From Akkermansia muciniphila ATCC BAA-835 (GTDB taxonomy: Bacteria > Verrucomicrobiota > Verrucomicrobiia > Verrucomicrobiales > Akkermansiaceae): 32,000 nt of DNA. The position numbers were made by a program, and so were the translations under genes. The stretch covers positions 1,950,001 to 1,982,000 of the forward strand of contig NC_010655.1 in the NCBI RefSeq assembly GCF_000020225.1, read 5' to 3'. The notes under the pieces were generated by a model. That model was not told the origin of the DNA, ran no database searches, and worked only from the letters and a program-made list of their open reading frames with translations. Below are positions 7,181 to 31,671 of this stretch, one piece after another. Positions within the stretch are counted from its first letter, which is position 1; every line of letters starts with the position of its first letter.

Positions 7181-7319
7181 ACGGGCAGGCTAGCATGTTC
7201 CGCTCCCGCGCTCAATGGGGAAATGTGTTCCTCCGGGGCGGGAAGCCGCCGGTGCTGCGCCGTCTTTTCCCTGCCTGTGGAGGCCTTGTTTCCTCGCATG
7301 GCGTTCCGATTCTGTATTC

Positions 7320-19104: not shown

Positions 19105-21690
19105 ATGGTTTTTTCTTCTCTTCCCATTGAGGAAATCCGCGGAGAATTGATGGAGGCTCTGCGGGTTCCTTCTCCGCGCATTTTGTTGAAAGCTCCTACC
19201 GGCTCCGGCAAGTCCACCGGCGTTCCTCCGATGATGGATGACGCCGGTCTGGGAGACCGTGGCCTGATTGTCGTTGTACAGCCCCGGCGGATGGCCGCTC
19301 GCCTGCTGGCGCGGCATGTGGCCCGGCTGCGCGGGGTGGAGCTGGGAAAAGAAGTGGGGTATGCGGTGCGTTTTGAACGGTACATTTCCTCCCGCACCCG
19401 TATCGCGTACGTGACGGACGGCATGTTGGAGCGCTGGCTGACGGAATGGCCCTCCCTGGAAGGGGTGAGCGCCGTGGTGTTTGATGAGTTCCATGAACGC
19501 AGCCTTTCCGGGGATTTATCCCTGGGGCGTGTGCTGGATCTGCAGGAAGGGCCGCGCCGGGATCTGGCCGTGGTCGTGATGTCCGCCACACTGGAGATAT
19601 CAGGGCTGCGGGAATATATGGGAGGTTCCTGCCGGGTTCTGGAAGCGCAAGGCAGGCAGTATCCCGTGGAAGTCGTTTACCGGGCTCCCCGCCTGGTCAG
19701 TGACGGACGCGGCAGGGTGGCTCCTCCCCCCATATGGGAGCAGGCGGCGGATGTTGTGCGGGAGGCGGTGAGGGAGGATGACTGCGGGGATGTGCTGGTA
19801 TTTATGCCGGGCGTGTATGAGATACGGAAAACGGTGGAGTTGCTGGCAGGAAAGCCGTGGATGAGCGGCCGGGACGTTTTTCCCCTTTACGGGTCTCTGG
19901 CGCCGGAGCAGCAGAATTGCGCCGTGGAGCGGGGGGATATCCCCCGTGTCATTGTTTCCACTAATGTGGCGGAAACTTCCCTGACGATTGAGGGAGTGCG
20001 TACGGTGGTTGATTCCGGGCTGGTCCGCCGGTCCGGATGGGATCCGTACCGGGGGATGGATACGCTGCATCTGGTGAAGATTTCCAAGGCGTCCGCCGCT
20101 CAGCGCGCGGGCCGTGCCGGGCGCGTGGCTCCGGGGCGCTGTTTCCGGCTGTGGAGTGAGGCGGAACAGGCCCGGAAGGAGGATTTTGACCCGCCCGAAT
20201 GTTTCCGGGTGGATCTGGCCGGAGCCGTTTTGAATTTGGCTGCCTGGGGCGTCACCGTACCGGAAAATTTCCGTTGGCTGGATGTTCCTGCCCCCCTGGT
20301 GATGCAGCGGGCCGTGAATTTGTTGGCTGCCCTGGGTGCGACGGAAGAGGATGGAAGCCTGACGGATACGGGAAAAAGGATGACCGCTTTTCCCCTGCCG
20401 CCCCGGCTGGCCCGTCTGATGGTGGCCGGCCAGGATGAACAGTGTGCCGTGGAGCTGGCCGCCGTTGCAGCCCTGATGCAGGGAGAAGGTGTTGCGGTAA
20501 AGGGGGGGCTGAACGATCATTTGCGCGATTCTGCGGATTACACGGATTTCCAGGCGGAGTGGCGCGCGGTGGAGAAGGCTGTGGATGCCGGTTTTGGGGC
20601 GGCGGCGTGTACCCGCTGGGGCATCTCTTCCCGCGGGGCGCGGGAGGCATGGATGGCATACCGGCAGCTTCTATCCGTCGGCAGCCGGGGAAAAGCCCGG
20701 GAAACGCCGGGACCGGATTTTACGGCGGCGCGCCCTGCCGTAGTCCGTGCAATGATTGAGAGTTTTGCGGACCATGTGGGTGTGCGAAATGGCGTGGCAG
20801 CCAATACATGCCGCATGGCCGGCGGGGTGGGCGGCAGGCTGGCGGAAGGAAGCGTGGTGTTTCAAGGAGAGCATTTCGTAGCCGCAGAGGTGGCGGAATT
20901 GTCCGGAAAGGCGGTGGAAACCCGTGTGGGACGCTGTACGCTTATTGCGCCGGAAGATTTGCGTTCCATTTGGCCGGAGCGTTTTTCCTGCGGGGAGGAA
21001 GCCGTCTTCGATGCCGCTTTGCGGCGCGTGCGTCTGCACCGGAAGCTGATGTATGGAGATCTGGTGCTGGAGGATCGTGACCGCGGGGATGCCCCTCCGG
21101 AGCTGGCCGCCCCGGTTTTGGCTGAAAAAGTAGTGGACGGAACCCTGAAGCTGGTGAAATGGAATGATGCCGTGGAACAGTGGATACGCCGTCTTAATGG
21201 TTTGAGCGTTTGGATGCCGGAACTGGAGCTGCCCCGGTTTTCGGAGGAGGACAAGCTGGTCGCCATTTCTTTGGTCTGTGAAGGGGCCGTGGGTTATAAG
21301 GACATCAAGGAAAGGGAAATTATTCCCGTGCTGAGGGATTGGCTTTCCGGCTGGCAGGCGAAGGCGCTGGACGATTATGCCCCGGTAAGCCTCACGTTGC
21401 CCAACGGCCAGCACGCCAAGGTCAGGTACGGGGAGGATTCCTCCCCGGTGATCAGTCTGACGGTGCAGCGCCTGTTCGGCGTGGCGGTTTCCCCACGCAT
21501 TGCCAACGGGGCCGTACCCGTGATTGTGGAGGTGCTGGCCCCCAGCCAGAGGCCGTGGCAGGTAACGGGATCTCTGGAAAGTTTTTGGCGGAACGGATAC
21601 GGGCAAATGAAAAAGGACCTGGCGGGGCGTTATCCCCGGCACCGTTGGCCCGACCCCGGGGAACTGGATTTCCTTCCCCGTTCCCGGTGA
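19105..21690 (+). CDS. hrpB: ATP-dependent RNA helicase HrpB (DEAH box)
   Basis: The opening SLPIEEIRGELMEAL...LLKAPTGSGKST parallels E. coli HrpB. Helicase motifs: DEFHERS, MSATL, STNVAETSLTIEGV, QRAGRAGR. The 861-aa length includes an HrpB-type C-terminal domain. Confidence 0.9.
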   Translation: MVFSSLPIEEIRGELMEALRVPSPRILLKAPTGSGKSTGVPPMMDDAGLGDRGLIVVVQPRRMAARLLARHVARLRGVELGKEVGYAVRFERYISSRTRIAYVTDGMLERWLTEWPSLEGVSAVVFDEFHERSLSGDLSLGRVLDLQEGPRRDLAVVVMSATLEISGLREYMGGSCRVLEAQGRQYPVEVVYRAPRLVSDGRGRVAPPPIWEQAADVVREAVREDDCGDVLVFMPGVYEIRKTVELLAGKPWMSGRDVFPLYGSLAPEQQNCAVERGDIPRVIVSTNVAETSLTIEGVRTVVDSGLVRRSGWDPYRGMDTLHLVKISKASAAQRAGRAGRVAPGRCFRLWSEAEQARKEDFDPPECFRVDLAGAVLNLAAWGVTVPENFRWLDVPAPLVMQRAVNLLAALGATEEDGSLTDTGKRMTAFPLPPRLARLMVAGQDEQCAVELAAVAALMQGEGVAVKGGLNDHLRDSADYTDFQAEWRAVEKAVDAGFGAAACTRWGISSRGAREAWMAYRQLLSVGSRGKARETPGPDFTAARPAVVRAMIESFADHVGVRNGVAANTCRMAGGVGGRLAEGSVVFQGEHFVAAEVAELSGKAVETRVGRCTLIAPEDLRSIWPERFSCGEEAVFDAALRRVRLHRKLMYGDLVLEDRDRGDAPPELAAPVLAEKVVDGTLKLVKWNDAVEQWIRRLNGLSVWMPELELPRFSEEDKLVAISLVCEGAVGYKDIKEREIIPVLRDWLSGWQAKALDDYAPVSLTLPNGQHAKVRYGEDSSPVISLTVQRLFGVAVSPRIANGAVPVIVEVLAPSQRPWQVTGSLESFWRNGYGQMKKDLAGRYPRHRWPDPGELDFLPRSR

Positions 21691-21804
21691 TAAGGAGAAA
21701 GGATTTTTCTGTAACAAAACAGTAGCAAAATCGACCGTTTCCGTGTAAAGAGGCGGTGGTGCAGCTCGCGGATGCCCTCCGCCCACCATTCACAAGAGAC
21801 AGTT

Positions 21805-24045
21805 ATGGACTCAATTTACTGGATTATCATCACAGCCCTGCTGCTTCTGGCGGCATTTGACTTGATCAACGGCGTAGCGAATGACGCTGTCAACTTCCTC
21901 AATTCCGCCATCGGTTCCAAGGCTGCACCCGTGCGGGTGATCCTGACCGTAGCTTCCATCGGCGTGCTGGTGGGGGCCTGTTTCTCCGGAGGCATGATGG
22001 AAGTAGCCCGCAACGGTATTTTTCACCCGGACATGTTCAGTTATCATGAAGTGATGCTGCTTTTCCTGGGGGTAATGATCAGCGAAGTGATTCTGCTGGA
22101 TACCTTCAATACTTTCGGATTGCCTACGTCCACCACCGTTTCCCTGGTATTCGGTATTTTGGGGTCTGCCGTAGCGACGGCCCTGTTCAAGATTTCCAAG
22201 CTCCGCCTGGTTCAGTCCGTGTGGGATTTCATTAATACGGACAAGGCTTTTGAGATTGTCACCAGCATTCTTCTTTCCGTAGCCATCGCCTTTACGGTAG
22301 GCACCATCGTCATGTGGATTTCCCGTCTGGCGTTCACGTTTAAATACCAGTCCCGGTTCAAATGGTTCGGCTGTTTCTGGTGCGGCATTGCCATGACGGC
22401 GATAGCCTATTTTGCCGTTTTCAAGGGCTTGAAAGAGTCTACCCTGATGGAGCCCTCGTTCATCCAATACATTGACCAGAATCTGGGCATGGCCCTGCTC
22501 ACGGCCTTCGGCGGTTTTTCCGTGCTCATGTTCCTGCTTCAGCATTTGTTCATGACGAATATTCTGCGCCTGACCGTTCTGGCGGGCACTTTTTCCCTGG
22601 CCCTGGCTTTTGCGGGCAACGACCTGGTGAATTTCATCGGCGTTTTCATGGGTGGTCTGGATTCCTTCCAGTACGCCAGCAGCGTGGCGGCGGCCGGTGG
22701 CTCTCCCTCATCCATCACCTCCATGGAGTGTCTGATGCCGGGGCAGGGCATGCCGGTAAACCATTATATTTTGTTCGCCGCGGGCTGCATGATGATTTTT
22801 GCCTTGTGGTTCTCCAAAAAGGCAAAAACGGTGATCGCCACCGGCGTGGAACTTTCCAGGCAGGGTGAAGGCGGTATTGAGCGTTTCGGCTCCGTCCCCC
22901 CCGCCCGCGCCATCGTTCGCAGCGCCATCGCCCTGGGACGCGGGGTGAAAAGGCTTATTCCCGCCCGCATGCTGGTGCGCATGAACCACCAGTGGGATCC
23001 CGCCCCCCAGCCCTTGAATCCCAAGGACCGGGTGGCATTTGACCTGATTCGCGCCACGGTGAACCTGACGGTTGCTTCCCTGTTGATTGCATGGGCTACT
23101 GGCAGGCAGCTCCCTCTTTCCACCACGTACGTGACGTTCATGGTGGCGATGGGCTCCTCTCTGGCGGACAAGGCATGGGGAAGGGAGAGCGCGGTTTACC
23201 GTGTAACCGGCGTGCTGACGGTGATTTCCGGCTGGTTCATGACCGGGCTGGCTGCCTTTACGCTGGCCGCCGTCATGGCTACCATCCTGCATTACGGACA
23301 GGTGTACGCCATCTTCGGTCTGCTGGCCCTGGTGGTTGTCATTCTGGTAAAGTCCACCATCATGCACCGCAAGCGGGAAAGCAAGCTTTCCGTAGAGCGT
23401 TTTGACCAGATTACGGAAGAAAATATCCTGGATGTATGCAGCCACCAGATTGTGGACAGCACGCTCAAGCTGCGGGAAATTTACAATGACACCGTGGAAA
23501 ACTTTTTCCAGGGGGACAGGAAGGCCCTGAAAGAACTGGCGGATGCCGCAGAACGGCTGGCCATGACCAGCAGCGAACATCACAAGTACGATATTCTCCC
23601 TATTCTGTACAAGATGCAGTCCCGCTCCCTGGATATGGGCTACCACTTTGTGCAGGCCCTGGAGCATCTGAATGAAGCTACGCAGAGCCTGTCGCAGTTT
23701 TCCGAGTCCATCTTCACGTATGTGGATAATAACCACACGCCGTTTACGATTGACCAGGTGGACGATTTGAAGGAGGTGCATACCGCCCTCATCAAGCTGC
23801 TGGATGAATATTGCAAAATGCTCCAGACGGGGACGTACATTCAGTTCGACTATACGATGGTGGCCCAGGAACAGCTTCTTCAACTGGTGGCAAAGGCCAC
23901 CAAGCGCCAGATCAAGCGGGCCCAGCGCAACCAGACGCGCACCCGTTCCTCCCTGCTTTATCTGAACATGCTTAATGAAATGAGGTTTATGGCCGTGCAG
24001 GTGCGGGCCCTGACCAATGACGAACGAAACTTTGTAGCGGCCTGA
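21805..24045 (+). CDS. PiT-family (PHO4) inorganic phosphate transporter with a ~220-aa helical cytoplasmic C-terminal domain
   Basis: Two PiT-type repeat motifs, INGVANDAVNFLNSAIGS (N-terminal) and AFAGNDLVNFIGVFMGG (second half), and about 10-12 hydrophobic helices. A hydrophilic, helix-rich tail runs from about 23380 (EENILDVCSHQIVDSTLKLREIY ... LLYLNMLNEMRFMAVQV). Start taken at the ATG at 21805 (MDSIYWIII). Confidence 0.8.
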   Translation: MDSIYWIIITALLLLAAFDLINGVANDAVNFLNSAIGSKAAPVRVILTVASIGVLVGACFSGGMMEVARNGIFHPDMFSYHEVMLLFLGVMISEVILLDTFNTFGLPTSTTVSLVFGILGSAVATALFKISKLRLVQSVWDFINTDKAFEIVTSILLSVAIAFTVGTIVMWISRLAFTFKYQSRFKWFGCFWCGIAMTAIAYFAVFKGLKESTLMEPSFIQYIDQNLGMALLTAFGGFSVLMFLLQHLFMTNILRLTVLAGTFSLALAFAGNDLVNFIGVFMGGLDSFQYASSVAAAGGSPSSITSMECLMPGQGMPVNHYILFAAGCMMIFALWFSKKAKTVIATGVELSRQGEGGIERFGSVPPARAIVRSAIALGRGVKRLIPARMLVRMNHQWDPAPQPLNPKDRVAFDLIRATVNLTVASLLIAWATGRQLPLSTTYVTFMVAMGSSLADKAWGRESAVYRVTGVLTVISGWFMTGLAAFTLAAVMATILHYGQVYAIFGLLALVVVILVKSTIMHRKRESKLSVERFDQITEENILDVCSHQIVDSTLKLREIYNDTVENFFQGDRKALKELADAAERLAMTSSEHHKYDILPILYKMQSRSLDMGYHFVQALEHLNEATQSLSQFSESIFTYVDNNHTPFTIDQVDDLKEVHTALIKLLDEYCKMLQTGTYIQFDYTMVAQEQLLQLVAKATKRQIKRAQRNQTRTRSSLLYLNMLNEMRFMAVQVRALTNDERNFVAA

Positions 24046-24086
24046 AGCGGCGGTTCTCTGTTTTTTTCACGTAAGGAAAAAAATTC

Positions 24087-24114
24087 TTGAGCGTTTAATT
24101 CGTGAAGGTATCCT
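24087..24114 (+). promoter_or_regulatory. Candidate promoter of RNA unit 1 (TTGAGC-16-TATCCT)
   Basis: TTGAGC at 24087-24092, a 16-nt spacer, and TATCCT at 24109-24114. The -35 element lies exactly 29 nt before the first stem. Unit 2 has the same spacing (TTGAAC 24273-24278, 29 nt, stem at 24308). Confidence 0.35.
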
Positions 24115-24119
24115 GAATG

Positions 24120-24234
24120 AACAGGGATGTTCGATAAGGGAGGAACGAGAGCTTCCCTTGTCACCAGGAATAACCCTGATTTCATAGGTAGTTAGTTGGA
24201 GCGGCTACGGGAGAAATTCCGTAGCCGCTTTTTT
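24120..24234 (+). ncRNA. Candidate small RNA, unit 1 (nested two-stem fold, conserved 18-nt tail, intrinsic terminator)
   Basis: Outer stem CAGGG (24122-26) / CCCTG (24174-78). Inner stem AAGGGAGG (24136-43) / CTTCCCTT (24152-59). Tail TTCATAGGTAGTTAGTTG at 24181-98. Terminator GCGGCTACGG (24201-10), loop gagaaatt, CCGTAGCCGC (24219-28), then TTTTTT (24229-34). Confidence 0.45.
24181..24198 (+). repeat. 18-nt exact repeat, copy 1: TTCATAGGTAGTTAGTTG (TAG in all three frames)
   Basis: Identical to 24370-24387. The TAG triplets start at motif offsets 5, 9 and 13, so there is one in each reading frame. Confidence 0.95.
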
Positions 24235-24305
24235 GTCTTCCCGGGCCTTGTGTCATACAAAAGAAATAATGTTTGAACATATTTGCCGTGTGTTTGTCTC
24301 ACCCA

Positions 24306-24426
24306 TAACGGTTATGATCCGGATGCAGTGAAAGAGAGAGCGCTTCATCCACTTAAGGACTCAACCGTCTTCATAGGTAGTTAGTTGAACAGCAGCCCCG
24401 GCGAAGGGATTCGCCGGGGTTTGTTC
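24306..24426 (+). ncRNA. Candidate small RNA, unit 2 (paralog of unit 1)
   Basis: Outer stem ACGGTT (24308-13) / AACCGT (24363-68). Inner stem GGATG (24321-25) / CATCC (24346-50). Shared unpaired blocks ATG(T/A)TC, GAGAGC and AGGA(A/C)T. Tail TTCATAGGTAGTTAGTTG at 24370-87. Terminator CCCCGGCGAA (24396-405), loop ggga, TTCGCCGGGG (24410-19), then TTTGTTCATTT. Confidence 0.45.
24370..24387 (+). repeat. 18-nt exact repeat, copy 2: TTCATAGGTAGTTAGTTG
   Basis: Identical to 24181-24198. Confidence 0.95.
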
Positions 24427-24511
24427 ATTTCCGGAAGATGTATTCCGCGCTGTAAACAGCTGGAAGGGAGGGGAAAAGAAAAAATAGGCTGCGTTTTGCC
24501 ACGGGGTTTGA

Positions 24512-24540
24512 TTGACGTGTGGGACGCGTCAGGGCATAGT
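24512..24540 (+). promoter_or_regulatory. Candidate promoter of the thioredoxin-fold gene (TTGACG-17-CATAGT), near-leaderless geometry
   Basis: TTGACG at 24512-17, a 17-nt spacer containing the palindrome GACGCGTC (24523-30), and CATAGT at 24535-40. The ATG at 24549 is only 8 nt past the -10. Confidence 0.3.
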
Positions 24541-24548
24541 GGCAGGGT

Positions 24549-25847
24549 ATGAAGAGAGCGTTTTGCGTGATAGCCGGTGCATGCAGCCTGCTTGGATGGG
24601 CTCCGGCGGACGAGACGGGCATGAACAATGTGCTGGAGGATTGGCGGATGAGGCAGTCCGACTGGGAATCCGCATTGAAAACGGCTGAAAGCGGGGAAAA
24701 AAGGGCGGAATTGATGAAGAACCGTCCGGATGCCGTTCCGGTGGCTCGGGAATTATGGAGGCTGGTAGGGCGCGACCTTCAGAAGCCCGAGACTCAAAAA
24801 TCCTGCCTTCTTCCGGCTGTCGTCTGGTTTCTGGATCATCCCCAGGCTGTAGCGCAGGCGTTCCCCAATGGAGACATGGCCAGGAAAATTGTCGTGTTCT
24901 GCCTGGATTCCCTGGAAAATACGCTGTTCCGGGAACAGGGGGCAGGAAAGGCGGCGTATGCCCTGAGCAATTCCCGTGACCTGCGCTGCCGCGTTATTCT
25001 GGAACAGATCAAGGATTACAACCAGTTCCCTGAGGACCAGGGCCTGGCTTCCCTGGGCCTGGCCATGGTGATGAAGGAAACGACAGGGATGCTTCAGGAT
25101 GACGTCAGGCTGGTGGCGGCCCGCGGAAAATTGCTGAAAGACGCCATTATCAAATGCTATGATTCCAGTTTCGGCCCTATTCCGGTTCAAAATATTGTGA
25201 AGGAGGAACTGTATGAAATACGCAATCTCAATATTGGGCAGACCGGGCCTGAAATCAGCCTTCCCTCTACCGCGGCGTCCGGAAAAGTGACGCTCCCCTC
25301 CGGGAATAAGCCCGTGCTGGTGGTTTTTTGGGATCCGCAGGATATGCGTTCCGTTCAGTTTTTGCAAAAAGCCGCGTCTCTCCGGAAAGAATTTCCCGGT
25401 TTGACGGTGATGCCGGTGGCTCCCGGAAAGAGAGAGAACATAGAAAAGGCCCTGTTGAACTTGAAAATGGATATGCCCTCCCTGGTGGATGAAAAAGCGG
25501 CGGCGTTTAAGGATTACCGGGTGAGGCTCACCCCGCGGGTGTATCTGCTGGACCCTGCGGGGAAAATCCTGATGCGCGGCACGCCGGATATGCTGTTTGA
25601 CGCCAACCTGTACGCGGTCATGGGCAAACTTGAGGGAAAAAAGAAAGAAAAGCCGGATGGGAAAAAGTCTCCCTCCTCCCCTGCTTCCTCCAAGCCTGTT
25701 TCTCCGCCGGCCAGGATTAATTCCCCGGATACGCGCGTTCCCTCTGTTTCCCGGCCTGATAGGCCGCGGCCCGCGTTCCCTTCCGCCCCCTCCGGTGCGG
25801 AGGACCATTCTCTTTCCGCTCCTCCTTTGAGGCCCATGCCTGAATGA
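24549..25847 (+). CDS. Secreted protein with a TlpA/ResA-like thioredoxin fold lacking the CXXC motif, and a Pro/Ser-rich C-terminal tail
   Basis: Signal-like N-terminus MKRAFCVIAGACSLLGWA. The segment GPEISLPSTAASGKVTLPSGNKPVLVVFWDPQDMRSVQFLQKAASLRKEFPGLTVMPV...PRVYLLDPAGKILMRG follows the TlpA/ResA layout (VLVNFWASWCxPC ... P.TFLID..G.I). Here WDPQD replaces WCxxC. The stop overlaps the next gene's ATG (ATGA at 25844-47). Confidence 0.65.
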   Translation: MKRAFCVIAGACSLLGWAPADETGMNNVLEDWRMRQSDWESALKTAESGEKRAELMKNRPDAVPVARELWRLVGRDLQKPETQKSCLLPAVVWFLDHPQAVAQAFPNGDMARKIVVFCLDSLENTLFREQGAGKAAYALSNSRDLRCRVILEQIKDYNQFPEDQGLASLGLAMVMKETTGMLQDDVRLVAARGKLLKDAIIKCYDSSFGPIPVQNIVKEELYEIRNLNIGQTGPEISLPSTAASGKVTLPSGNKPVLVVFWDPQDMRSVQFLQKAASLRKEFPGLTVMPVAPGKRENIEKALLNLKMDMPSLVDEKAAAFKDYRVRLTPRVYLLDPAGKILMRGTPDMLFDANLYAVMGKLEGKKKEKPDGKKSPSSPASSKPVSPPARINSPDTRVPSVSRPDRPRPAFPSAPSGAEDHSLSAPPLRPMPE

Positions 25848-27238
25848 TCCGTTTCATGGAGGGGATTCTGTTGAGAAAGGCCGCGGAGGACGTGGCCCGG
25901 GTTCTTTCCGGAGCAGGACACACCGTATATTTTGTGGGCGGCTGTGTTCGGGACAGGTTGCTGGGATATTCCGTGAAGGATATCGATATTGCCACCTCCG
26001 CCCGCCCGGATGAAGTGTTGCGCCTGTTTCCGGATGCCTGGGAAGTGGGCGCCGCCTTCGGCGTGGTGCTGGTACGCCGCGAAGGTTTTTCCTTTGAGGT
26101 GGCGACCTTCCGCAGAGACGGAAGCTACAGGGATGGCCGGAGGCCGGAGGACGTCTGTTTCACGGATGCGGAAGAAGATGCCCGGCGGCGTGATTTTACC
26201 ATGAACGGCCTCTTTGAAGATCCGTTTTCTTCGCCTCCGGGCCGTGTGGTGGATTATGTAGGCGGAGTGGAGGATATCCGGGCCCGCGTATTGAGGTGCA
26301 TCGGGGAGCCGGACCGTCGTTTTGAAGAAGATTCCCTGCGGCTGATGCGCGCCGTACGTTTTGCCGTTACTAGGGAAGTTCAGGTGGAGAAGGAGACTTG
26401 CTCCTCCATTTTCAGGAACGCTCCGCTGCTGGCCCGGATTTCCCCGGAACGCATCCGGGAGGAACTGGACAGGATTTTATTGTCTCCCGGAAGGAAACGG
26501 GGTGTGGAAATGCTGGTGGAAACGGGGTTGATGAAGCATGTCATTCCGGAAATATACGATATGATAGGCTGTACGCAACCTCCCCAATGGCATCCGGAAG
26601 GAGACGTATACACCCATACGCTGATGATGCTGGATGCGCTGGGAAGGGACGGCTCCCCCGTGTCTTTGAAGCTGGCCCTGGGGGTTCTGCTGCATGACAT
26701 CGGGAAACCTCCCTGCCGTCAGGTGGATGAAACGGGGCGCATCCGTTTTTCCGGTCATGACAAGGAAGGTTCTTCCATGGCCAGGGTCATTTTAAGAAGG
26801 CTGAAATATTCCAATGCCGTGGTGGATGCGGTGTGTTCCATGGTGGAGCGCCATATGCGCTTCATCAACGTGAGGCAGATGAGGAAATCTACGCTGCGAA
26901 TGTTCATGAACGCTCCTCATTTCCGGGATGAACTGGAACTCCACCGCCTGGATTGCCTTTCCTCCAACGGACTGATGGACAACTGGCAATTTGTCAGGGA
27001 CTTCATGGATTCCTACCGGAATGCCCCTCTGGTTCCTCCTCCTCTGGTGACCGGGCGTGATCTGGTGAATCTGGGGCTGTCCCCGGGGCCTGATTTCGGG
27101 AAATGGCTGTCCCGTCTGCAGGAACTTCAGTTGGAGGGAACGCTCCGGACCAGGGAGGAAGCCCTGCTGCAGCTGGGACAAATTGCCCCGGTGGAACAGA
27201 ATGCGCTTGCAGAATACCTGAAAAAGTTAGCATTATAA
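25844..27238 (+). CDS. cca: CCA-adding tRNA nucleotidyltransferase (class II, with HD domain)
   Basis: VYFVGGCVRDRLLGYSVKDIDIATSARPDEV (GGxVRD plus DxD), RRDFTMNGLF, EDSLRLMRAVRF, and the HD block LLHDIGKP. An alternative start lies at M5 (25856). Confidence 0.85.
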   Translation: MIRFMEGILLRKAAEDVARVLSGAGHTVYFVGGCVRDRLLGYSVKDIDIATSARPDEVLRLFPDAWEVGAAFGVVLVRREGFSFEVATFRRDGSYRDGRRPEDVCFTDAEEDARRRDFTMNGLFEDPFSSPPGRVVDYVGGVEDIRARVLRCIGEPDRRFEEDSLRLMRAVRFAVTREVQVEKETCSSIFRNAPLLARISPERIREELDRILLSPGRKRGVEMLVETGLMKHVIPEIYDMIGCTQPPQWHPEGDVYTHTLMMLDALGRDGSPVSLKLALGVLLHDIGKPPCRQVDETGRIRFSGHDKEGSSMARVILRRLKYSNAVVDAVCSMVERHMRFINVRQMRKSTLRMFMNAPHFRDELELHRLDCLSSNGLMDNWQFVRDFMDSYRNAPLVPPPLVTGRDLVNLGLSPGPDFGKWLSRLQELQLEGTLRTREEALLQLGQIAPVEQNALAEYLKKLAL

Positions 27239-27264
27239 GCGTCAAAATTTGATTATTTCAACTC

Positions 27265-29034
27265 ATGCGTCCTGTCATTTATCAACTATTTGTTCGTCAT
27301 TTTTCCAATATGGAGACCCATGGAGTTGACTGGGGGAGCCGGGAAACGAACGGGTGCGGAACTTTTAATGGAGTGACGGATAAAGCCTTACGTGAAATAG
27401 CACGGATGGGTTTCACACACATCTGGCTGACCGGGGTATTGAGGCACGCTACGCAGACGGCCCATCCCGGGCTGGCCGCCCAGCCGGAATCCATCGTAAA
27501 AGGCCTGGCAGGAAGTCCCTATGCCGTGGTGGATTATTTTGACGTGGATCCGGACCTGGCCTCCTCCCCGGAGAAGAGAATGGATGAGTTCAAGGCTCTG
27601 GTAAAGCGTTGCCGGACGGTGGGGCTGCTGCCGATGATGGATTTTATTCCCAACCATGTTTCCCGAGCCTACCTGGCGGACTGGGACGGGCATGACGATT
27701 TTGGAGAAGGAGATGATCCCCATACGTTTTTTTCTCCGGAGCAGGGGTACTTTTACCTGACCTCCAACAGCCTTGGGGACGGTCCACCCCTGCGTCTGCC
27801 GGACGGCCTGTTTGAAGGGGAAATGACGTTCGGCCGTGTGACGGGCAACAATGCCGTTACATGGAATCCCGGCAAGTACGACTGGTATGAAACGGTCAAG
27901 CTCAACTACGGCTATAACTTTATGGCCGGTCTTCCTGCCCTCCGCCTGTTGCCGGGGTGGACCAGCCCCAAGCAGCATGTGCCCAAGACATGGCGCATCA
28001 TGGACGATATCCTTTCCTTCTGGCAAAGCCTGGGCATCGGCGGTTTCAGGTGCGACATGGCCCAAATGATCCCCATGGCTTTCTGGAAATGGGCCATTTC
28101 CCGTTCCCGGGTGCGTCTGCCGGACGTGTTTTTCATGGCGGAGGCATACAACGACCACATGAAAACCACACCCGGCGATCCGTGCGCCGCCCTTCTGGAT
28201 GCCGGATTTAATGCCGTTTACGATTCCGACTGCTATCATCTGGCGCTCCATATGTACACGGAAAATAACTGGGCCAATGACTTCGACCGGCTTTTCCGAA
28301 GCAATCCCATATACATGACCCACGGCGTCCGCTACGTGGAAAACCATGATGAAACGCGCGTGTGCTCCCCTCTTTCCTGGGGCGGCGTGGGGCGCGTTGT
28401 TCTGCCGGCGGTCATGACGCTGGTGTATGCCTCCGGGAGCGGTCCCGTGCTGGTGTACAACGGGCAGGAAGTGGGGGAACGGGCGGAGGGGCCCGGCGGT
28501 TTCGGCGGACATGACGGGCGTACCAGTATTTTTGACTATACCTGCCTCCCCCGGCTCCAGCCCTGGGTGGCGGATGGCCGGTTTGACTCTTCCCTGTTGC
28601 CGGAAGAGTCCGCAGAACTGAGAAATTTTCATCGGAAGCTTCTTCCTCTGATGCAGCATCCGGCGCTGGACCGGGGAGATTTTTACGGCCTGAACTGGGC
28701 TAATATGAAAAACACCACTTTCGGCAGGGAACCGGCGGAAGACACTTCCGGCCACTGGGTATATGCCATGCTCCGGCATGATGCCCGCGCCAGGGCCACC
28801 GTGCTTGTGGTGGGGAACCTTTCTCCAAATATCAATTTCTACAACCTGCGCATTTCCATTCCCCAGCACGCTTTCGGCTGGTGCGGCATCCAGACGGATC
28901 GGGTACGCGTCAGAAACCTGATGGACGCCGAGGGTGAGGACAGGATTTTTGAGCGGCGGGAATTGATGGACTGCGGTCTGTCCCATCCCCTGAAACCGGG
29001 ACATGTGGGCGTGCTGGAACTGTCTGCCGTTTAG
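27265..29034 (+). CDS. GH13 alpha-amylase-family glycosidase (cytoplasmic; no signal peptide)
   Basis: All four GH13 conserved regions are present: I MDFIPNHVS, II GGFRCDMAQMIP, III FFMAEAY, IV YVENHDETR. Substrate specificity cannot be assigned by eye. Confidence 0.85.
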   Translation: MRPVIYQLFVRHFSNMETHGVDWGSRETNGCGTFNGVTDKALREIARMGFTHIWLTGVLRHATQTAHPGLAAQPESIVKGLAGSPYAVVDYFDVDPDLASSPEKRMDEFKALVKRCRTVGLLPMMDFIPNHVSRAYLADWDGHDDFGEGDDPHTFFSPEQGYFYLTSNSLGDGPPLRLPDGLFEGEMTFGRVTGNNAVTWNPGKYDWYETVKLNYGYNFMAGLPALRLLPGWTSPKQHVPKTWRIMDDILSFWQSLGIGGFRCDMAQMIPMAFWKWAISRSRVRLPDVFFMAEAYNDHMKTTPGDPCAALLDAGFNAVYDSDCYHLALHMYTENNWANDFDRLFRSNPIYMTHGVRYVENHDETRVCSPLSWGGVGRVVLPAVMTLVYASGSGPVLVYNGQEVGERAEGPGGFGGHDGRTSIFDYTCLPRLQPWVADGRFDSSLLPEESAELRNFHRKLLPLMQHPALDRGDFYGLNWANMKNTTFGREPAEDTSGHWVYAMLRHDARARATVLVVGNLSPNINFYNLRISIPQHAFGWCGIQTDRVRVRNLMDAEGEDRIFERRELMDCGLSHPLKPGHVGVLELSAV

Positions 29035-29103
29035 AGAAGCGTTCCCTCCGGAGGGAAGCTGCAGCCTTTGCCGATATTTTTTACTCTGCTGGGCGTTTTT
29101 ATG

Positions 29104-29132
29104 ATGACGGGCGGTTTTTAATTCGGTATAGT
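29104..29132 (+). promoter_or_regulatory. Candidate promoter of the secretin gene (ATGACG-17-TATAGT)
   Basis: ATGACG at 29104-09, a 17-nt spacer, and TATAGT at 29127-32, 13 nt before the ATG at 29146. It is preceded by a direct repeat, GGGCGTTTTTA (29091-101) and GGGCGGTTTTTA (29109-120). Confidence 0.3.
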
Positions 29133-29145
29133 CCCGGAAATTCCT

Positions 29146-31671
29146 ATGACTAGACGTTTCCCTCACTCCATGTCTGCCATTCAGCAAATTGCCATGGCGC
29201 TTGCCGTTGCCGGTATTGGAGCCGGCCAGGGGCTGGCCCAGGAGGGGGCAGGGGCCGCACGCCGGGCAGCAGCCCGGATGGAAGAGCAGGCTCAGGCTTC
29301 CATGCTGCTGTTAGGGCAGGCGCGTCAGCAATATTCCGAGGGCAAGTACCAGGAAGCTCTGGACAATTACCGCAGAAGCCTGACTGCGCTGCCCAAATCC
29401 CCCAATATGGAGAAGCGCCGCCGTTTCCTGGAAACCAGCATCGCGGATGCCAGTGTGGCTGTGGCTCAGGAATATATCAAGGCGGGGCGTTACGATGAGG
29501 CCGTCAAGTTGCTGGAAGATGCCCTGAAATCCACTCCGGACCATGCCTTGGCCAGGCGCACGTTGGAAATAGCCCGCGACCCGGTGCGTACGAATCCGGC
29601 ATTGTCTCCGGAACACGTAAAAAATGTAGAGGAAGTCAACCGTCTGCTTCACCTGGCTTTCGGCTATTATGAACTGGGCCAGTATGATGCGGCCCTGAAG
29701 GAATTTACGTCCGTCCTTAAGACGGACCCTTACAATACGGCGGCGCGGCGCGGCATGGAACTGGTTAACCGCGCCAGAACCGCCTATTTTAGCGCTGCCA
29801 GGGATGAAACCCGCAGCAGTGCCCTGGCGGATGTTTCCAGACAGTGGGAGATGCCCGTTCCTTTGACGGAAACACCGGAGGAACCCGCTTCATTTTCCCG
29901 GCCGCTGGATAACCCGGTGGTGAATGTGGACCAGAAACTAGGCATGATCCGCCTGCCCCGTGTGCAGCTGGATGGAGCGACGGTGCAGGAAGCCGTGGAC
30001 TATCTGCGCAGCCAGGCCAGGACGCATGATGCCACGGCCATGACTGCGGCGGAACGCGGCGTGAATATTTCCGTGGATCCCGGTCCTGCAGACAGCGTTT
30101 CCGCCAGGGACGCCGCCGCCAAGAGAATTACGCTTAATCTTCAGAATGTACCTCTTCGTGAGGCCCTGGAATACGTGGCGCGCGCATCCGGCCTTATTCT
30201 GCGGACAAATGCCTTTGGTGCGGAACTGGTATCCAGTTCAGACGGAACTTCCTACATGGTCACCAAGTCCATTACCCTTCCGCCGGGCTTCTTTTCCGGA
30301 TTGTCGGAGGACTCTGGCGCCGAAAATTCAGACCCCTTCAGTTCCGGTGATTCCGGTTCTTCCGGCATGACCCTGAAACGGGTGGATCCGCAAAAGGCGC
30401 TGGCTTCCATGGGGGTGAAATTCCCGGAAGGCAGTTTCATTAAATACAACTCGGGCAACTCCACTCTTCTTTTCCATGGCACGCCCAGAGATTTGAGCAT
30501 GCTGGAGGAGCTGGTAGCGGCCAGGACTGCGGAACAGCCCCTCCAGGTGGTGGTCAGCGCGACCTTTCTGGAAGTCAATCAGACGGACTTGGAGGAATTG
30601 GGCTTTAACTGGATCGTCAATCTGAACCTGGACCCTACCAAGTGGTTCATGGGCGGCGCGGGAACCGATAAAAATGACTATAACAATTCCGTGCTGGACA
30701 GCGCCGCCAATGTGGCCGGAGCCGTCGCTCCCGCAGGAGTGGTGGGCGGGCTGCGTTCCGGCAACCAGGTTTTTACGGAAGATAGCATTGACAGCATGAT
30801 AGAACGCGGCACTTCCGCCAGAAGTTCTGATGCGACCTATGTTCCCGGCGGCGCTCCCAGCATCGTCACTCTGCGCGGCATGTGGAGTCACGCGGATATC
30901 ACGATGATTATGCGCGGCCTGAGCCAGAAAAAAGGCACAGACATTATGCAGCATCCTTCCGTGATTGTGCGCCCCGGTGAAAAAGCCACCTTTTTCAGCG
31001 GCAGGGAACTGATTTACCCTACGGAATATGATCCGCCTGAAGTTCCCAACAGCACGGGCAATAATAATGACTGGGGCGACAATGACAATAACGGCGGCGG
31101 TATTCCGGTCATGCCCATGACTCCCGCCCATCCCTCTGCCTTTGAAACCAGGCAGCTCGGCACGATCTTCAATGTGGAAGTGACCGGCATCAGCGATGAC
31201 AAATCCATCGTGGAAATGACCGTAGTGCCGGAAATCGTGGATTTTGACGGTTTCATCAACTACGGCACGTCGCTTTTCGTTCCCATGGTCTCCCAGGAAA
31301 AGGACGCAAAGGAAGAAGTCGTCATGGTGAAAACTTCAGACAACTTCATTCTTCAGCCCGTGTTTTCCACGCGGCGCCTGACCGCTCCGGTGCGCATAGC
31401 CACCGGCAATACGCTCGTCATCGGCGCCTTGAAAAAATCCACTTCCATTACGTATGAGGATAAAATTCCCGTTCTGGGGGATATTCCCTGGGTGGGGCGT
31501 CTTTTCCGTTCCAAGGGGTCCAAGGAACAGCGCAAGGCCATCATCATCATGGTAAAGGCGGAAGTGGTGGATCCGGGCGGCAAGAAGCTTTATACGCCGG
31601 ATACTTCCATTCCGGACGATGAGGTCCCGGCAGGGGACGCTTCGCTCCCCGCCCTCAGCAATGCCCAGTAA
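29146..31671 (+). CDS. pilQ: Outer-membrane secretin (type II/III secretion / type IV pilus PilQ-like) with an N-terminal TPR region
   Basis: Signal-like AIQQIAMALAVAGIGAGQGLAQ. TPR-like repeats (YSEGKYQEALDNYRRSL, YIKAGRYDEAVKLLEDALK, YYELGQYDAALKEFTSVLK). C-terminal secretin domain with the hallmark IPVLGDIPWVGRLFRSKGSKEQRKAIIIMVKAEVV. An alternative start lies at 29170 (MSAIQQ). Confidence 0.85.
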   Translation: MTRRFPHSMSAIQQIAMALAVAGIGAGQGLAQEGAGAARRAAARMEEQAQASMLLLGQARQQYSEGKYQEALDNYRRSLTALPKSPNMEKRRRFLETSIADASVAVAQEYIKAGRYDEAVKLLEDALKSTPDHALARRTLEIARDPVRTNPALSPEHVKNVEEVNRLLHLAFGYYELGQYDAALKEFTSVLKTDPYNTAARRGMELVNRARTAYFSAARDETRSSALADVSRQWEMPVPLTETPEEPASFSRPLDNPVVNVDQKLGMIRLPRVQLDGATVQEAVDYLRSQARTHDATAMTAAERGVNISVDPGPADSVSARDAAAKRITLNLQNVPLREALEYVARASGLILRTNAFGAELVSSSDGTSYMVTKSITLPPGFFSGLSEDSGAENSDPFSSGDSGSSGMTLKRVDPQKALASMGVKFPEGSFIKYNSGNSTLLFHGTPRDLSMLEELVAARTAEQPLQVVVSATFLEVNQTDLEELGFNWIVNLNLDPTKWFMGGAGTDKNDYNNSVLDSAANVAGAVAPAGVVGGLRSGNQVFTEDSIDSMIERGTSARSSDATYVPGGAPSIVTLRGMWSHADITMIMRGLSQKKGTDIMQHPSVIVRPGEKATFFSGRELIYPTEYDPPEVPNSTGNNNDWGDNDNNGGGIPVMPMTPAHPSAFETRQLGTIFNVEVTGISDDKSIVEMTVVPEIVDFDGFINYGTSLFVPMVSQEKDAKEEVVMVKTSDNFILQPVFSTRRLTAPVRIATGNTLVIGALKKSTSITYEDKIPVLGDIPWVGRLFRSKGSKEQRKAIIIMVKAEVVDPGGKKLYTPDTSIPDDEVPAGDASLPALSNAQ

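What the first reader, a model, noticed from the sequence alone, without database searches (positions are those of the whole stretch)
24087..24430. Tandem pair of paralogous, terminator-capped structured RNAs with covarying stems and an identical three-frame-stop tail
The 500-bp gap between the phosphate transporter and the thioredoxin-fold gene has no credible ORF but holds two units of the same architecture about 186 bp apart.

Each unit has, in order:
- a -35-like hexamer (TTGAGC / TTGAAC) exactly 29 nt before an outer stem
- the outer stem: CAGGG...CCCTG in unit 1, ACGGTT...AACCGT in unit 2
- a shared ATG(T/A)TC spacer
- an inner hairpin: AAGGGA...TCCCTT versus GGATG...CATCC
- a shared GAGAGC in or next to the loop, and a shared AGGA(A/C)T before the outer stem closes
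- 1-2 nt later, an 18-nt tail identical in both copies (TTCATAGGTAGTTAGTTG)
- a strong, sequence-unrelated intrinsic terminator (10-bp GC stems followed by a T-run)

Both stems have entirely different sequences in the two copies yet remain perfectly complementary, while the unpaired blocks are conserved. That is the pattern expected for selection on RNA structure rather than on a peptide.

The tail carries TAG in all three frames. Its reverse complement (CAACTAACTACCTATGAA) looks like a translation-initiation region containing AUG, so it could be an antisense seed that targets start codons.

The layout resembles tandem sRNA paralogs such as PrrF1/PrrF2. A tandem transcription-attenuating riboswitch upstream of the thioredoxin-fold gene is the alternative. 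I do not recognise the motif as any riboswitch or RNA family I know.
Basis: seen in the sequence. Interest (0 to 1): 0.7.

Follow-up and report, generated by a model that had tools for sequence, protein, structure and literature searches.

The report
New small-RNA family in Akkermansia
Two neighbouring ~120-base genes in this Akkermansia genome belong to an uncatalogued, multi-copy family of small RNAs that keep the same folded hairpin and an almost unchanging 18-base single-stranded stretch, most likely used to recognise target messages.

Summary
Window 24117-24240 and 24304-24433 (+) are two paralogous RNA genes. Each has a promoter-like site, a three-helix 5' hairpin capped by a GAGAG loop, the identical 18-mer TTCATAGGTAGTTAGTTG, and an intrinsic terminator.

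- Family size: I found 53 distinct copies in Akkermansia and relatives, up to 5 per genome, in unrelated gene contexts. The downstream gene is often convergent.
- Structure: stems differ completely between copies, yet 93.7% of cells pair, against 62% when shuffled and 36-45% when slid. Compensatory changes occur in 30 of 31 pairs.
- Unbiased test: a plain MAFFT plus RNAalifold run on 12 loci from the same gene neighbourhood (six of them fetched through the neighbouring protein, not the tail) recovers the same fold.
- Tail: it is unchanged where that protein has fallen to 48% identity. It varies only slightly in other clades, and it is predicted to be unpaired.
- Known families: there is no Rfam match, and I found no paper describing it.

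Best reading: independently transcribed sibling sRNAs that act in trans through the tail. No target was found, so base pairing is inferred, not shown. A protein-binding role is the main rival. The riboswitch or leader alternative is excluded. This is a new family of a known kind.

The parts
24087..24092 (+). Unit 1 -35-like hexamer TTGAGC, preceded by an A-rich stretch
   Evidence: Sequence. The same hexamer and spacing are kept in orthologs L004 and L005.
24109..24114 (+). Unit 1 -10-like hexamer TATCCT, 16 nt after the -35 (sigma-70-like)
   Evidence: Sequence. Orthologs have TATTTT and TATGCT at the same place. Inferred, no transcript data.
24117..24240 (+). Unit 1 sRNA gene ('type A'), about 115 nt
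   Evidence: Covariance model built from unit-2 orthologs only matches it full length, 56 bits, E = 1.4e-11. Fold z = -6.2.
24122..24178 (+). Unit 1 5' hairpin domain. P1 is 24122-26 with 24174-78. P2 is 24128-32 with 24168-72. P3 is 24133-43 with 24152-62. The loop is 24144-51 (AACGAGAG). A 3' bulge lies at 24163-67.
   Evidence: MFE fold. Structural alignment and pair counts.
24181..24198 (+). Unit 1 conserved single-stranded tail TTCATAGGTAGTTAGTTG (candidate seed)
   Evidence: Mean P(unpaired) is 0.71 for this copy.
24198..24235 (+). Unit 1 intrinsic terminator (15-pair stem plus T6). It probably also terminates the upstream PHO4 gene.
   Evidence: Terminator scan. The terminator is kept in L006 where the sRNA body is lost.
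24247..24260 (+). Conserved near-palindromic box CTTGTGTCATACAA upstream of unit 2's -35 (candidate transcription-factor site)
   Evidence: Present in all syntenic orthologs. Present as the exact reverse complement in distant L028.
24273..24278 (+). Unit 2 -35-like hexamer TTGAAC
   Evidence: It is in 31 of the 33 copies inspected as TTGAAC or TTGAGC (17 of them shown); L024 and L031 unit 1 lack it. The aroA-murA group has TTGATT.
24296..24302 (+). Unit 2 -10-region motif GTCTCAC, 17 nt after TTGAAC. It resembles the E. coli sigma-E -10 (GTCAAA) at the preferred spacing.
   Evidence: The spacer has constant length and variable sequence across 15 orthologs. Sigma-E consensus from PMC1312014 and PMC1804206. 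Assignment is inferred.
24304..24433 (+). Unit 2 sRNA gene ('type B'), about 120 nt
   Evidence: CM hit of 152.7 bits. Fold z = -4.4. Syntenic orthologs found in 12 loci.
24308..24368 (+). Unit 2 5' hairpin domain. P1 is 24308-13 with 24363-68. P2 is 24316-20 with 24357-61. P3 is 24321-30 with 24341-50. The loop is 24331-40 (AAAGAGAGAG). A 3' bulge lies at 24351-56.
   Evidence: RNAalifold on an unfitted MAFFT alignment recovers it.
24370..24387 (+). Unit 2 conserved tail TTCATAGGTAGTTAGTTG (candidate seed)
24388..24427 (+). Unit 2 intrinsic terminator. The core stem is 24394-24421, extended by GAACAGC with TTGTTC.
   Evidence: All 12 terminator pairs covary across the family.
24512..24540 (+). 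Context: the AhpC/TSA-like gene's own sigma-70-like promoter, TTGACG-N17-CATAGT. It shows that the gene is not led by the sRNAs.
   Evidence: Promoter scan. Conserved in orthologs.
21772..24045 (+). Context: upstream PHO4-family phosphate transporter gene
   Evidence: Pfam PF01384, E = 2.3e-26.
24549..25847 (+). Context: downstream AhpC/TSA-like (thioredoxin-fold) gene, used as the anchor for unbiased ortholog retrieval
   Evidence: Pfam PF00578, 25.1 bits, just below the 26-bit cut-off. Homologs.

Best explanation
The two units are separate genes for about 115-120-nt non-coding RNAs. They belong to a multi-copy 'sibling' sRNA family of Akkermansia and close relatives.

**Anatomy of each gene**
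- Its own promoter.
- A 5' hairpin of three stacked helices (P1-P2-P3) capped by a purine-rich loop ending in GAGAG.
- A 1-2-nt linker.
- An accessible 18-nt stretch, UUCAUAGGUAGUUAGUUG.
- A Rho-independent terminator.

**Proposed mechanism**
- The RNAs act in trans. The invariant single-stranded stretch is the seed that base-pairs with one or more mRNAs.
- Its complement, ACUACCUAUGAA, contains AUG, so it may cover a start codon.
- The hairpin and terminator give stability and perhaps a protein-binding platform. The GAGAG loop may be a second contact.
- Paralogs carry different promoters. Unit 1 is sigma-70-like. Unit 2 has TTGAAC-N17-GTCTCAC, which resembles RpoE-type ECF promoters, plus an upstream palindromic box. 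Different signals could therefore feed one regulon.

**Shown**
- The gene family and its structure.
- Conservation and predicted accessibility of the tail.
- Independence from neighbouring genes.

**Inferred**
- Transcription itself.
- Trans action by base pairing (about 0.5).
- ECF-sigma control of unit 2 (about 0.35).
For: **Family**
- The exact 18-mer found 19 copies in 14 Akkermansia or Akkermansiaceae loci, with up to 5 per genome.
- A model built only from unit-2 orthologs finds all sequence types full length, with E from 1e-35 to 1e-5. Apart from the members, it found only two weak, degenerate unit-1 remnants in 204 kb.
- The metagenome scan added more members, giving 53 distinct sequences.

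**Structure**
- Hand structural alignment: 96.9% of cells paired, against 61.9% shuffled and 30-51% slid.
- CM alignments: 91.4% and 93.7% paired, with 30 of 31 pairs changed on both sides.
- RNAalifold on an unfitted MAFFT alignment of 12 syntenic orthologs recovers P1-P2-P3 and the terminator, with 10 compensated pairs.

**Tail**
- It is identical in loci fetched through the neighbouring protein at 64, 57, 52, 51 and 48% identity.
- The only variants seen are U13A, G7A, a 1-nt insertion and, at 36% protein identity, +4/-1 nt with the core AUAGGUAGU kept.
- Mean P(unpaired) is 0.73 for the tail against 0.32 for the rest, across all 30 copies.

**Independence from neighbours**
- Contexts are unrelated. 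The downstream gene is convergent in L002, L008, L009, L018 and L023.
- The AhpC-like gene has its own conserved promoter.

**Not coding, not catalogued**
- There is no conserved ORF.
- There is no Rfam family match.

**Promoter**
- The spacer is constant in length and variable in sequence between TTGAAC and GTCTYAC in 15 orthologs.
- E. coli sigma-E promoters are GGAACTT-N16-TCAAA with A/T-rich upstream sequence, and they drive the sRNAs RybB and MicA.
Against: - No transcript data were available, so promoters, 5' ends and expression are inferred.
- No target was found. In about 1 Mb of held sequence there were only chance-level 9-mers.
- The one strong start-region duplex in the window was nfeD at -14.8 kcal/mol. 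It is not conserved in three orthologs, which score -5.9, -6.9 and -10.1.
- Both invariant elements are period-4 purine repeats (GAGAGAG and UAGGUAGUUAGU). That pattern could equally be a protein-binding code.
- Most of the tail's apparent invariance comes from loci found by searching for the tail itself. Only about 10 loci were ascertained independently of it.
- The ECF reading rests on resemblance to a proteobacterial consensus. Many family members have sigma-70-like -10 boxes instead. The motif is not clearly enriched elsewhere in the held DNA.
Confidence: 0.6

Rival explanations
1. Protein-binding (sponge or cofactor) RNA. The GAGAG loop and the (UAGN)3 tail are repeated recognition motifs for an RNA-binding protein. 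The family titrates or recruits that protein instead of pairing with mRNAs.
For: The two invariant elements share a period-4 K-A-G-N pattern. No complementary target was found. Multi-copy genes with different promoters also fit titrating RNAs such as CsrB/C or RsmX/Y/Z (my knowledge).
Against: There are only two short motifs per RNA, whereas known sponges carry many. GGA motifs in loops are not conserved. A single accessible, near-invariant 12-18-nt stretch next to a terminator is the typical layout of base-pairing sRNAs. The target search covered only a small part of any genome, so its failure says little.
Confidence: 0.2
2. Cis-acting leader. The units form a tandem transcription-attenuating riboswitch or attenuator that controls the downstream thioredoxin-fold gene.
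For: In the Akkermansia genus the pair sits on the same strand upstream of the AhpC/TSA-like gene, with terminators that could attenuate.
Against: Other family members lie in unrelated contexts. The next gene is convergent in L002, L008, L009, L018 and L023. The AhpC-like gene has its own conserved TTGACG-N17-CATAGT promoter downstream of the terminator. No alternative anti-terminator fold is apparent. In UBA7331 the AhpC-like gene has no such element upstream.
Confidence: 0.03
3. Repeated DNA element or by-product. The units are a dispersed repeat (MITE/REP-like) or merely 3'-UTR and terminator modules, with no function as an RNA of their own.
For: The family is multi-copy and dispersed. Unit 1 starts 42 nt after the PHO4 stop, and its terminator probably serves that gene, since it is retained alone in L006. 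Unit 1 is degenerate in L016 and L019.
Against: A DNA repeat would keep its sequence, not lose stem sequence while keeping pairing. Copies have no terminal inverted repeats or target-site duplications. The promoter spacer length is conserved. Orthologs are stably syntenic across species whose flanking protein is 48-64% identical.
Confidence: 0.05
4. Small-protein gene. The units encode a short peptide that ends in the three-frame stop tail.
For: Unit 1 in the window has a 22-codon ATG ORF ending ...FIGS* in the tail. Some copies have SD-like AAGGAG in the loop.
Against: Eight of the 30 copies examined have no ATG ORF at all. Unit 2's longest is 5 codons. ORFs are not shared between orthologs. 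Substitutions are pairwise-compensatory, not synonymous. Lengths differ by amounts that are not multiples of 3.
Confidence: 0.01

Closest known systems
RybB / MicA (sigma-E-dependent envelope-stress sRNAs of enterobacteria)
   Same: Both are short, independently transcribed RNAs with a conserved single-stranded seed and a Rho-independent terminator. Unit 2 and several paralogs have a promoter resembling the sigma-E consensus, with A/T-rich upstream sequence: (T)TGAAC..-N16-TCTCA against GGAACTT-N16-TCAAA.
   Different: There is no sequence or Rfam similarity. Here the seed lies between a large 5' hairpin and the terminator, not at the 5' end. The phylum is different. Sigma factor, chaperone and targets are all unknown. 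Many paralogs have sigma-70-like promoters.
Tandem and sibling sRNAs: PrrF1/PrrF2, OmrA/OmrB, Qrr1-5, LhrC1-5, streptococcal csRNAs
   Same: Several paralogous copies occur per genome, some directly in tandem (window; L008). They share an invariant region while the rest diverges, and copies have different promoters.
   Different: The family is unrelated in sequence and structure to all of these. In most of them the paralogs stay similar in sequence, whereas here the stems are fully rewritten with compensation.
CsrB / RsmY / RsmZ-type protein-sequestering RNAs
   Same: Both are multi-copy non-coding RNAs with repeated short purine-rich motifs exposed in loops or single-stranded regions, ending in a terminator.
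   Different: There is no array of GGA-containing hairpins. Only one loop motif (GAGAG) and one tail are present. No Rfam match.
Riboswitches and attenuators with expression-platform terminators
   Same: Both have a structured domain followed by an intrinsic terminator on the same strand as a downstream gene, as in the window.
   Different: The family is not tied to any gene class. It often faces a convergent gene. No alternative fold is apparent, and the downstream gene has its own promoter.

Membership tests
Any Rfam 15 family | Covariance-model score at or above the family's gathering threshold | tested here: not met
   No hits at gathering threshold in the window or in 14 related loci. At E <= 10 there was only noise, mostly from the terminator: L20_leader 19.2 bits against 58.7, Spot_42 13.2 against 80, sodF 15.8 against 46.
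Independently transcribed trans-acting sRNA (general class) | Own promoter and own Rho-independent terminator, not tied to a neighbouring gene | tested here: met
   Promoter-like boxes have conserved spacing. Terminators are present and covary. Contexts are unrelated and often convergent. Actual transcription was not testable.
Independently transcribed trans-acting sRNA (general class) | Non-coding, with conservation explained by RNA structure and not by codons | tested here: met
   30 of 31 pairs show compensatory changes and 93.7% of cells pair. No conserved ORF.
Independently transcribed trans-acting sRNA (general class) | Conserved, accessible seed with complementary sites in target mRNAs | tested here: inconclusive
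   The seed candidate is conserved and accessible. No target was found in the limited DNA available. A whole-genome search was not possible.
Sibling (multi-copy) sRNA families | Two or more paralogs per genome sharing one invariant functional region | tested here: met
   2 copies in the window. 5 in Akkermansia sp. S24M_St_8. 4 in UBA7331. A further locus lies between aroA and murA in Akkermansia contigs.
Sigma-E (RpoE/ECF)-dependent sRNAs such as RybB and MicA | Promoter matching the ECF sigma-E consensus at the right spacing | tested here: inconclusive
   Unit 2 has TGAACAT-N16-TCTCA, against GGAACTT-N16-TCAAA in E. coli. The motif and spacing are conserved in 15 orthologs. The cognate consensus for Akkermansia is unknown, and unit 1 and other paralogs look sigma-70-like.
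Sigma-E (RpoE/ECF)-dependent sRNAs such as RybB and MicA | Induction by envelope stress, repression of outer-membrane protein mRNAs, and Hfq dependence | not testable with these tools
   No expression data and no complete genome were available.
Riboswitch / transcription attenuator | Consistent position in the 5' leader of a functionally related gene set | tested here: not met
   Neighbours of the other copies include a class IV aminotransferase, a sulfate permease, fructose-bisphosphate aldolase, FabH, an Abi-like protein, aroA/murA and an alanine symporter. Several are on the opposite strand.
CsrB/Rsm-type sponge RNA | Many GGA motifs presented in hairpin loops | tested here: not met
   The only conserved loop motif is GAGAG. 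GGA is present in the loop of only some copies.

The most novel reading that the evidence does not exclude
The family could be the RNA arm of a stress response in Verrucomicrobia that has not been described. In this reading, several paralogs are driven by an RpoE-like ECF sigma factor. Their two invariant period-4 purine motifs (GAGAGAG and UAGGUAGUUAGU) are read by an unknown RNA-binding protein, not only by base pairing. That would make it a new RNA-protein regulatory module in a phylum with no characterised sRNA or chaperone.
Probability: 0.15. Interest if true: 0.8.

Novelty: new member of a known kind. Interest (0 to 1): 0.6.

Why it matters
Akkermansia is one of the most studied beneficial gut bacteria. 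I found no described regulatory RNA for it or its phylum, either in Rfam 15 or in the searchable literature.

This family offers a concrete, well-supported entry point:
- defined genes
- a defined structure
- an ultra-conserved 12-18-nt element that can be mutated
- paralogs with visibly different promoters

If the tail is a seed, its targets define a conserved post-transcriptional regulon. If some paralogs are ECF-dependent, that regulon may be linked to envelope stress. In either case the family should be added to RNA family databases, so that Akkermansia genomes and gut metatranscriptomes are annotated correctly.

Tried and rejected
- **Rfam.** No family matched at gathering threshold. The low-score hits only reflected the terminators.
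- **Plain MAFFT plus RNAalifold on all seven sequence types.** This failed and predicted only 4 trivial pairs. I therefore made a hand structural alignment. To keep it intact through MAFFT, I padded it with N and added an artificial 25-nt 5' tag. The tag is not biological.
- **Targets.**
  - Contiguous anti-seed matches in held DNA were only 9-mers at chance frequency.
  - One match (L018) looked like a lipoprotein start but lies inside a 369-aa membrane protein.
  - The nfeD start region scored -14.8 kcal/mol in the window. The pairing is not conserved in three orthologs, so it was rejected.
- **ECF motif enrichment.** GAAC-N17/18-TCTNA occurs 10 times against 5.7 expected, and almost all occurrences are the sRNA promoters themselves. 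A stricter scan of about 1 Mb found one extra hit, before an unknown ORF in L064. This neither supports nor refutes the idea.
- **Phage origin.** The 18-mer is absent from IMG/VR.
- **tRNA-linked element.** There are no tRNAs in the window or the loci.
- **Coding potential.** No conserved ORF.
- **Possible long-range helix.** Some copies show complementarity between the -10/start region and the tail. It depended on including untranscribed flanks and disappeared with model-defined ends.
- **Literature.** Nine searches, including one for the sequence itself, found nothing on this RNA or on Akkermansia sRNAs.
Full report
**Observation**

The 500-nt gap lies between a PHO4-family transporter gene (21772-24045) and an AhpC/TSA-like gene (24549-25847).

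| Feature | Unit 1 | Unit 2 |
|---|---|---|
| -35-like hexamer | TTGAGC 24087-92 | TTGAAC 24273-78 |
| Hairpin domain | 24122-24178 | 24308-24368 |
| Tail | 24181-24198 | 24370-24387 |
| Terminator | 24198-24231 plus T6 | 24394-24421 |

- The 18-mer TTCATAGGTAGTTAGTTG occurs twice, with none expected even at 3 mismatches.
- Both terminators are detected by the scan.
- Both units fold much better than shuffles, z = -6.2 and -4.4.
- One correction: the 'shared spacers' ATG(T/A)TC and AGGA(A/C)T are largely the two strands of a middle helix, P2.

**It is a family, not a local oddity**

- A scan of one genome per prokaryotic species with the 18-mer gave 21 loci.
  - 14 are from Akkermansia or Akkermansiaceae and carry 19 copies with the same architecture.
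  - 7 are chance hits (Flavobacteriaceae, Pedobacter and others) with no hairpin or terminator.
- One genome (Akkermansia sp. S24M_St_8) has 5 copies, and UBA7331 has 4.
- The copies fall into seven sequence types whose stems share no sequence. All of them fold as follows:
  - P1 (3-8 bp), P2 (3-7 bp) and P3 (9-11 bp);
  - a loop of N3-5 plus GAGAG;
  - a 2-15-nt bulge on the 3' side between P3 and P2;
  - a 1-2-nt linker, the tail and the terminator.

**Structure is under selection**

| Alignment | Cells paired | Shuffled | Slid by 1-3 columns | Pairs changed on both sides |
|---|---|---|---|---|
| Hand structural alignment, 19 copies | 96.9% | 61.9% | 30-51% | 24 of 27 |
| CM alignment, 30 copies | 91.4% | 61.5% | 36-46% | 30 of 31 |
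| CM alignment, 53 distinct sequences | 93.7% | 61.7% | 36-45% | 30 of 31 |

- The hand alignment was fitted to each sequence's own fold, so I sought unfitted evidence.
- I fetched orthologous loci through the neighbouring AhpC/TSA-like protein, which does not depend on the RNA sequence.
- A plain MAFFT alignment of 12 syntenic orthologs was given to RNAalifold. It recovered P1-P2-P3 and the terminator, with 10 compensated pairs. Examples in P3 are G-C to A-U and G-C to C-G.
- A covariance model built only from those 12 unit-2 orthologs finds every other type full length. This includes window unit 1 at 56 bits, E = 1e-11. Beyond the family members, it found only two weak, degenerate unit-1 remnants (L019, L016) in 204 kb.

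**The tail**

- Among the protein-anchored loci, the tail is identical where the flanking protein is 64, 57, 52, 51 and 48% identical. The stems and the promoter spacer have diverged in those same loci.
- At 36% protein identity (L027, L028) the homologous RNA has TTCATATATAGGTAGTAGTTG. That is a 4-nt insertion and a 1-nt deletion, with the core AUAGGUAGU...AGUUG kept.
- A degenerate metagenome scan followed by the model added:
  - a clade with U13A (TTCATAGGTAGTAAGTTG);
  - one copy with a 1-nt insertion.
- One unit-1 ortholog has G7A.
- With transcript ends taken from the model, the tail's mean probability of being unpaired is 0.73, against 0.32 for the rest, in all 30 copies.
- The three-frame TAGs are a direct consequence of the period-4 repeat UAGG-UAGU-UAGU.

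**Independent genes, not leaders**

- Other copies lie next to unrelated genes: a class IV aminotransferase, a Ser/Thr kinase and sulfate permease, DUF3313/DUF4126, FabH, fructose-bisphosphate aldolase, an Abi-like protein, SPFH, aroA/murA and an alanine symporter.
- The next gene downstream is convergent in L002, L008, L009, L018 and L023.
- The AhpC-like gene has its own conserved TTGACG-N17-CATAGT promoter just before its ATG.
- In UBA7331 that gene has no such RNA upstream.
- No ORF is conserved. Eight of the 30 copies examined lack any ATG ORF, and unit 2's longest is 5 codons.
- Unit 1 is less stable in evolution. It is absent in L006, where only the terminator remains. It is degenerate in L016 and L019.

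**Promoters**

- In unit-2 orthologs, TTGAAC and GTCTYAC(C)CATA are conserved. They are separated by a 17-nt spacer (18 nt in the two distant loci, L027 and L028) of variable sequence, which is the signature of a promoter.
- Counted as in E. coli, this is TGAACAT-N16-TCTCA. The sigma-E consensus is GGAACTT-N16-TCAAA, with an A/T-rich upstream region and a 5-6-nt discriminator. Such promoters drive the sRNAs RybB and MicA (PMC1312014, PMC1804206).
- Types E and F share this pattern.
- Unit 1, types C and D, and the aroA-murA copies have sigma-70-like -10 boxes, for example TTGATT-N17-TATATT.
- I therefore treat ECF control of unit 2 as a hypothesis (about 0.35). The motif is not clearly enriched elsewhere in the DNA I held.
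- A 14-nt near-palindrome, CTTGTGTCATACAA (24247-24260), is also conserved upstream of unit 2. It appears inverted in the distant lineage.

**Mechanism**

The layout is the standard one for base-pairing sRNAs and sibling families: a stable 5' hairpin, an accessible near-invariant stretch, a terminator, and several paralogs with different promoters. I commit to that reading at about 0.5 for base pairing and about 0.9 for 'independent structured sRNA family'.

I could not find a target:
- The held Akkermansia DNA gave only chance-level anti-seed matches.
- The single strong start-region duplex in the window (nfeD, -14.8 kcal/mol) is not conserved in three orthologs.

The main rival is protein binding (about 0.2). 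It is suggested by the shared K-A-G-N periodicity of the loop and the tail.

**Comparison and novelty**

- No Rfam 15 family matches the window or 14 related loci.
- Nine literature searches, including one for the sequence itself, found no description.
- The absence of a paper in this library does not prove that none exists.
- Functionally the family resembles sibling sRNAs (PrrF1/2, OmrA/B, Qrr, LhrC, csRNAs). In promoter type it may resemble RybB and MicA. It is not a member of any of these.
- It is a new family of a known kind.

**Limits**

- There were no expression data and no complete genome for target prediction.
- No phylogeny-aware covariation test (R-scape) was run.
- E-values from the model are rough, because calibration was shortened.
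- Most copies were ascertained through the tail itself.

Noticed in passing
window 24247-24260: The near-palindromic box CTTGTGTCATACAA lies about 12 nt upstream of unit 2's -35. It is conserved in all syntenic orthologs. It is present as the exact reverse complement (TTGTATGACACAAG) in the distant lineage L028. Type C copies have GTGTTATGACAAAAG at the same position. It is a candidate transcription-factor binding site.
   Followed up: partly
window 24512-24540: A sigma-70-like promoter, TTGACG-N17-CATAGT, is conserved across Akkermansia orthologs. It ends only about 8 nt before the ATG of the AhpC/TSA-like gene, which implies a nearly leaderless mRNA.
   Followed up: partly
L038 10293-10417, L097 11531-11655 and similar metagenome loci: A further family member has tail variant TTCATAGGTAGTAAGTTG and a sigma-70-like promoter TTGATT-N17-TATATT. 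It lies between aroA (divergent) and murA on contigs whose proteins are named Akkermansia sp. The protein cluster sizes (about 900) match those of the window's own genes. The window's species therefore probably has at least a third locus.
   Followed up: partly
L034 12645-12773, L048 1602-1725, L089 3859-3983: More divergent family members with the U13A tail lie next to a 455-479-aa ORF. In L034 that ORF's protein cluster is named sodium:alanine symporter (Akkermansia sp.).
   Followed up: no
L006 6650-6700 (orthologous to window 24198-24235): In one Akkermansia species the body of unit 1 is gone but its terminator hairpin remains after the PHO4 gene. This suggests that unit 1's terminator also serves the transporter gene. 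Unit 1 is degenerate in L016 (4052-4170) and L019 (3128-3246).
   Followed up: partly
window 19105-31671 and L022, L024, L025: The gene order HrpB helicase, PHO4 transporter, sRNA(s), AhpC/TSA-like, CCA-adding/poly(A) polymerase-like, alpha-amylase, TPR-secretin is conserved across Akkermansia species whose AhpC-like proteins are only 48-64% identical.
   Followed up: partly
L029 2124-4826 (UBA7331): Here the AhpC/TSA-like gene follows an RseP-like Peptidase_M50/PDZ site-2 protease gene, with a 3-nt gap and no sRNA. RseP-type proteases belong to ECF sigma activation pathways, so the adjacency may be worth a look.
   Followed up: no
L007 5428-5445, L011, L013, L015 (Flavobacteriaceae): These are chance matches of the 18-mer. 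On the opposite strand it is the start region of a response-regulator-like gene (CAACTAACTACCT-ATG-AAC...). The anti-seed can therefore look like a real SD-less start region. It is unrelated to the Akkermansia family.
   Followed up: partly
window 7135-7185 (- strand), start of ORF 5744-7180: The start region of an NfeD-family membrane protease gene gives the best predicted duplex with the tail in the window, at -14.8 kcal/mol (about the 1st percentile of background). The pairing is not conserved in three orthologs.
   Followed up: yes
L064 3073-3099 (+): This is the only other strict match to TGAAC-N16-18-GTC[TA]NA in held Akkermansia-like DNA. It lies 44 nt before a 403-aa ORF of unknown function (MDNDAKKKVIKDLDN...).
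   Followed up: no
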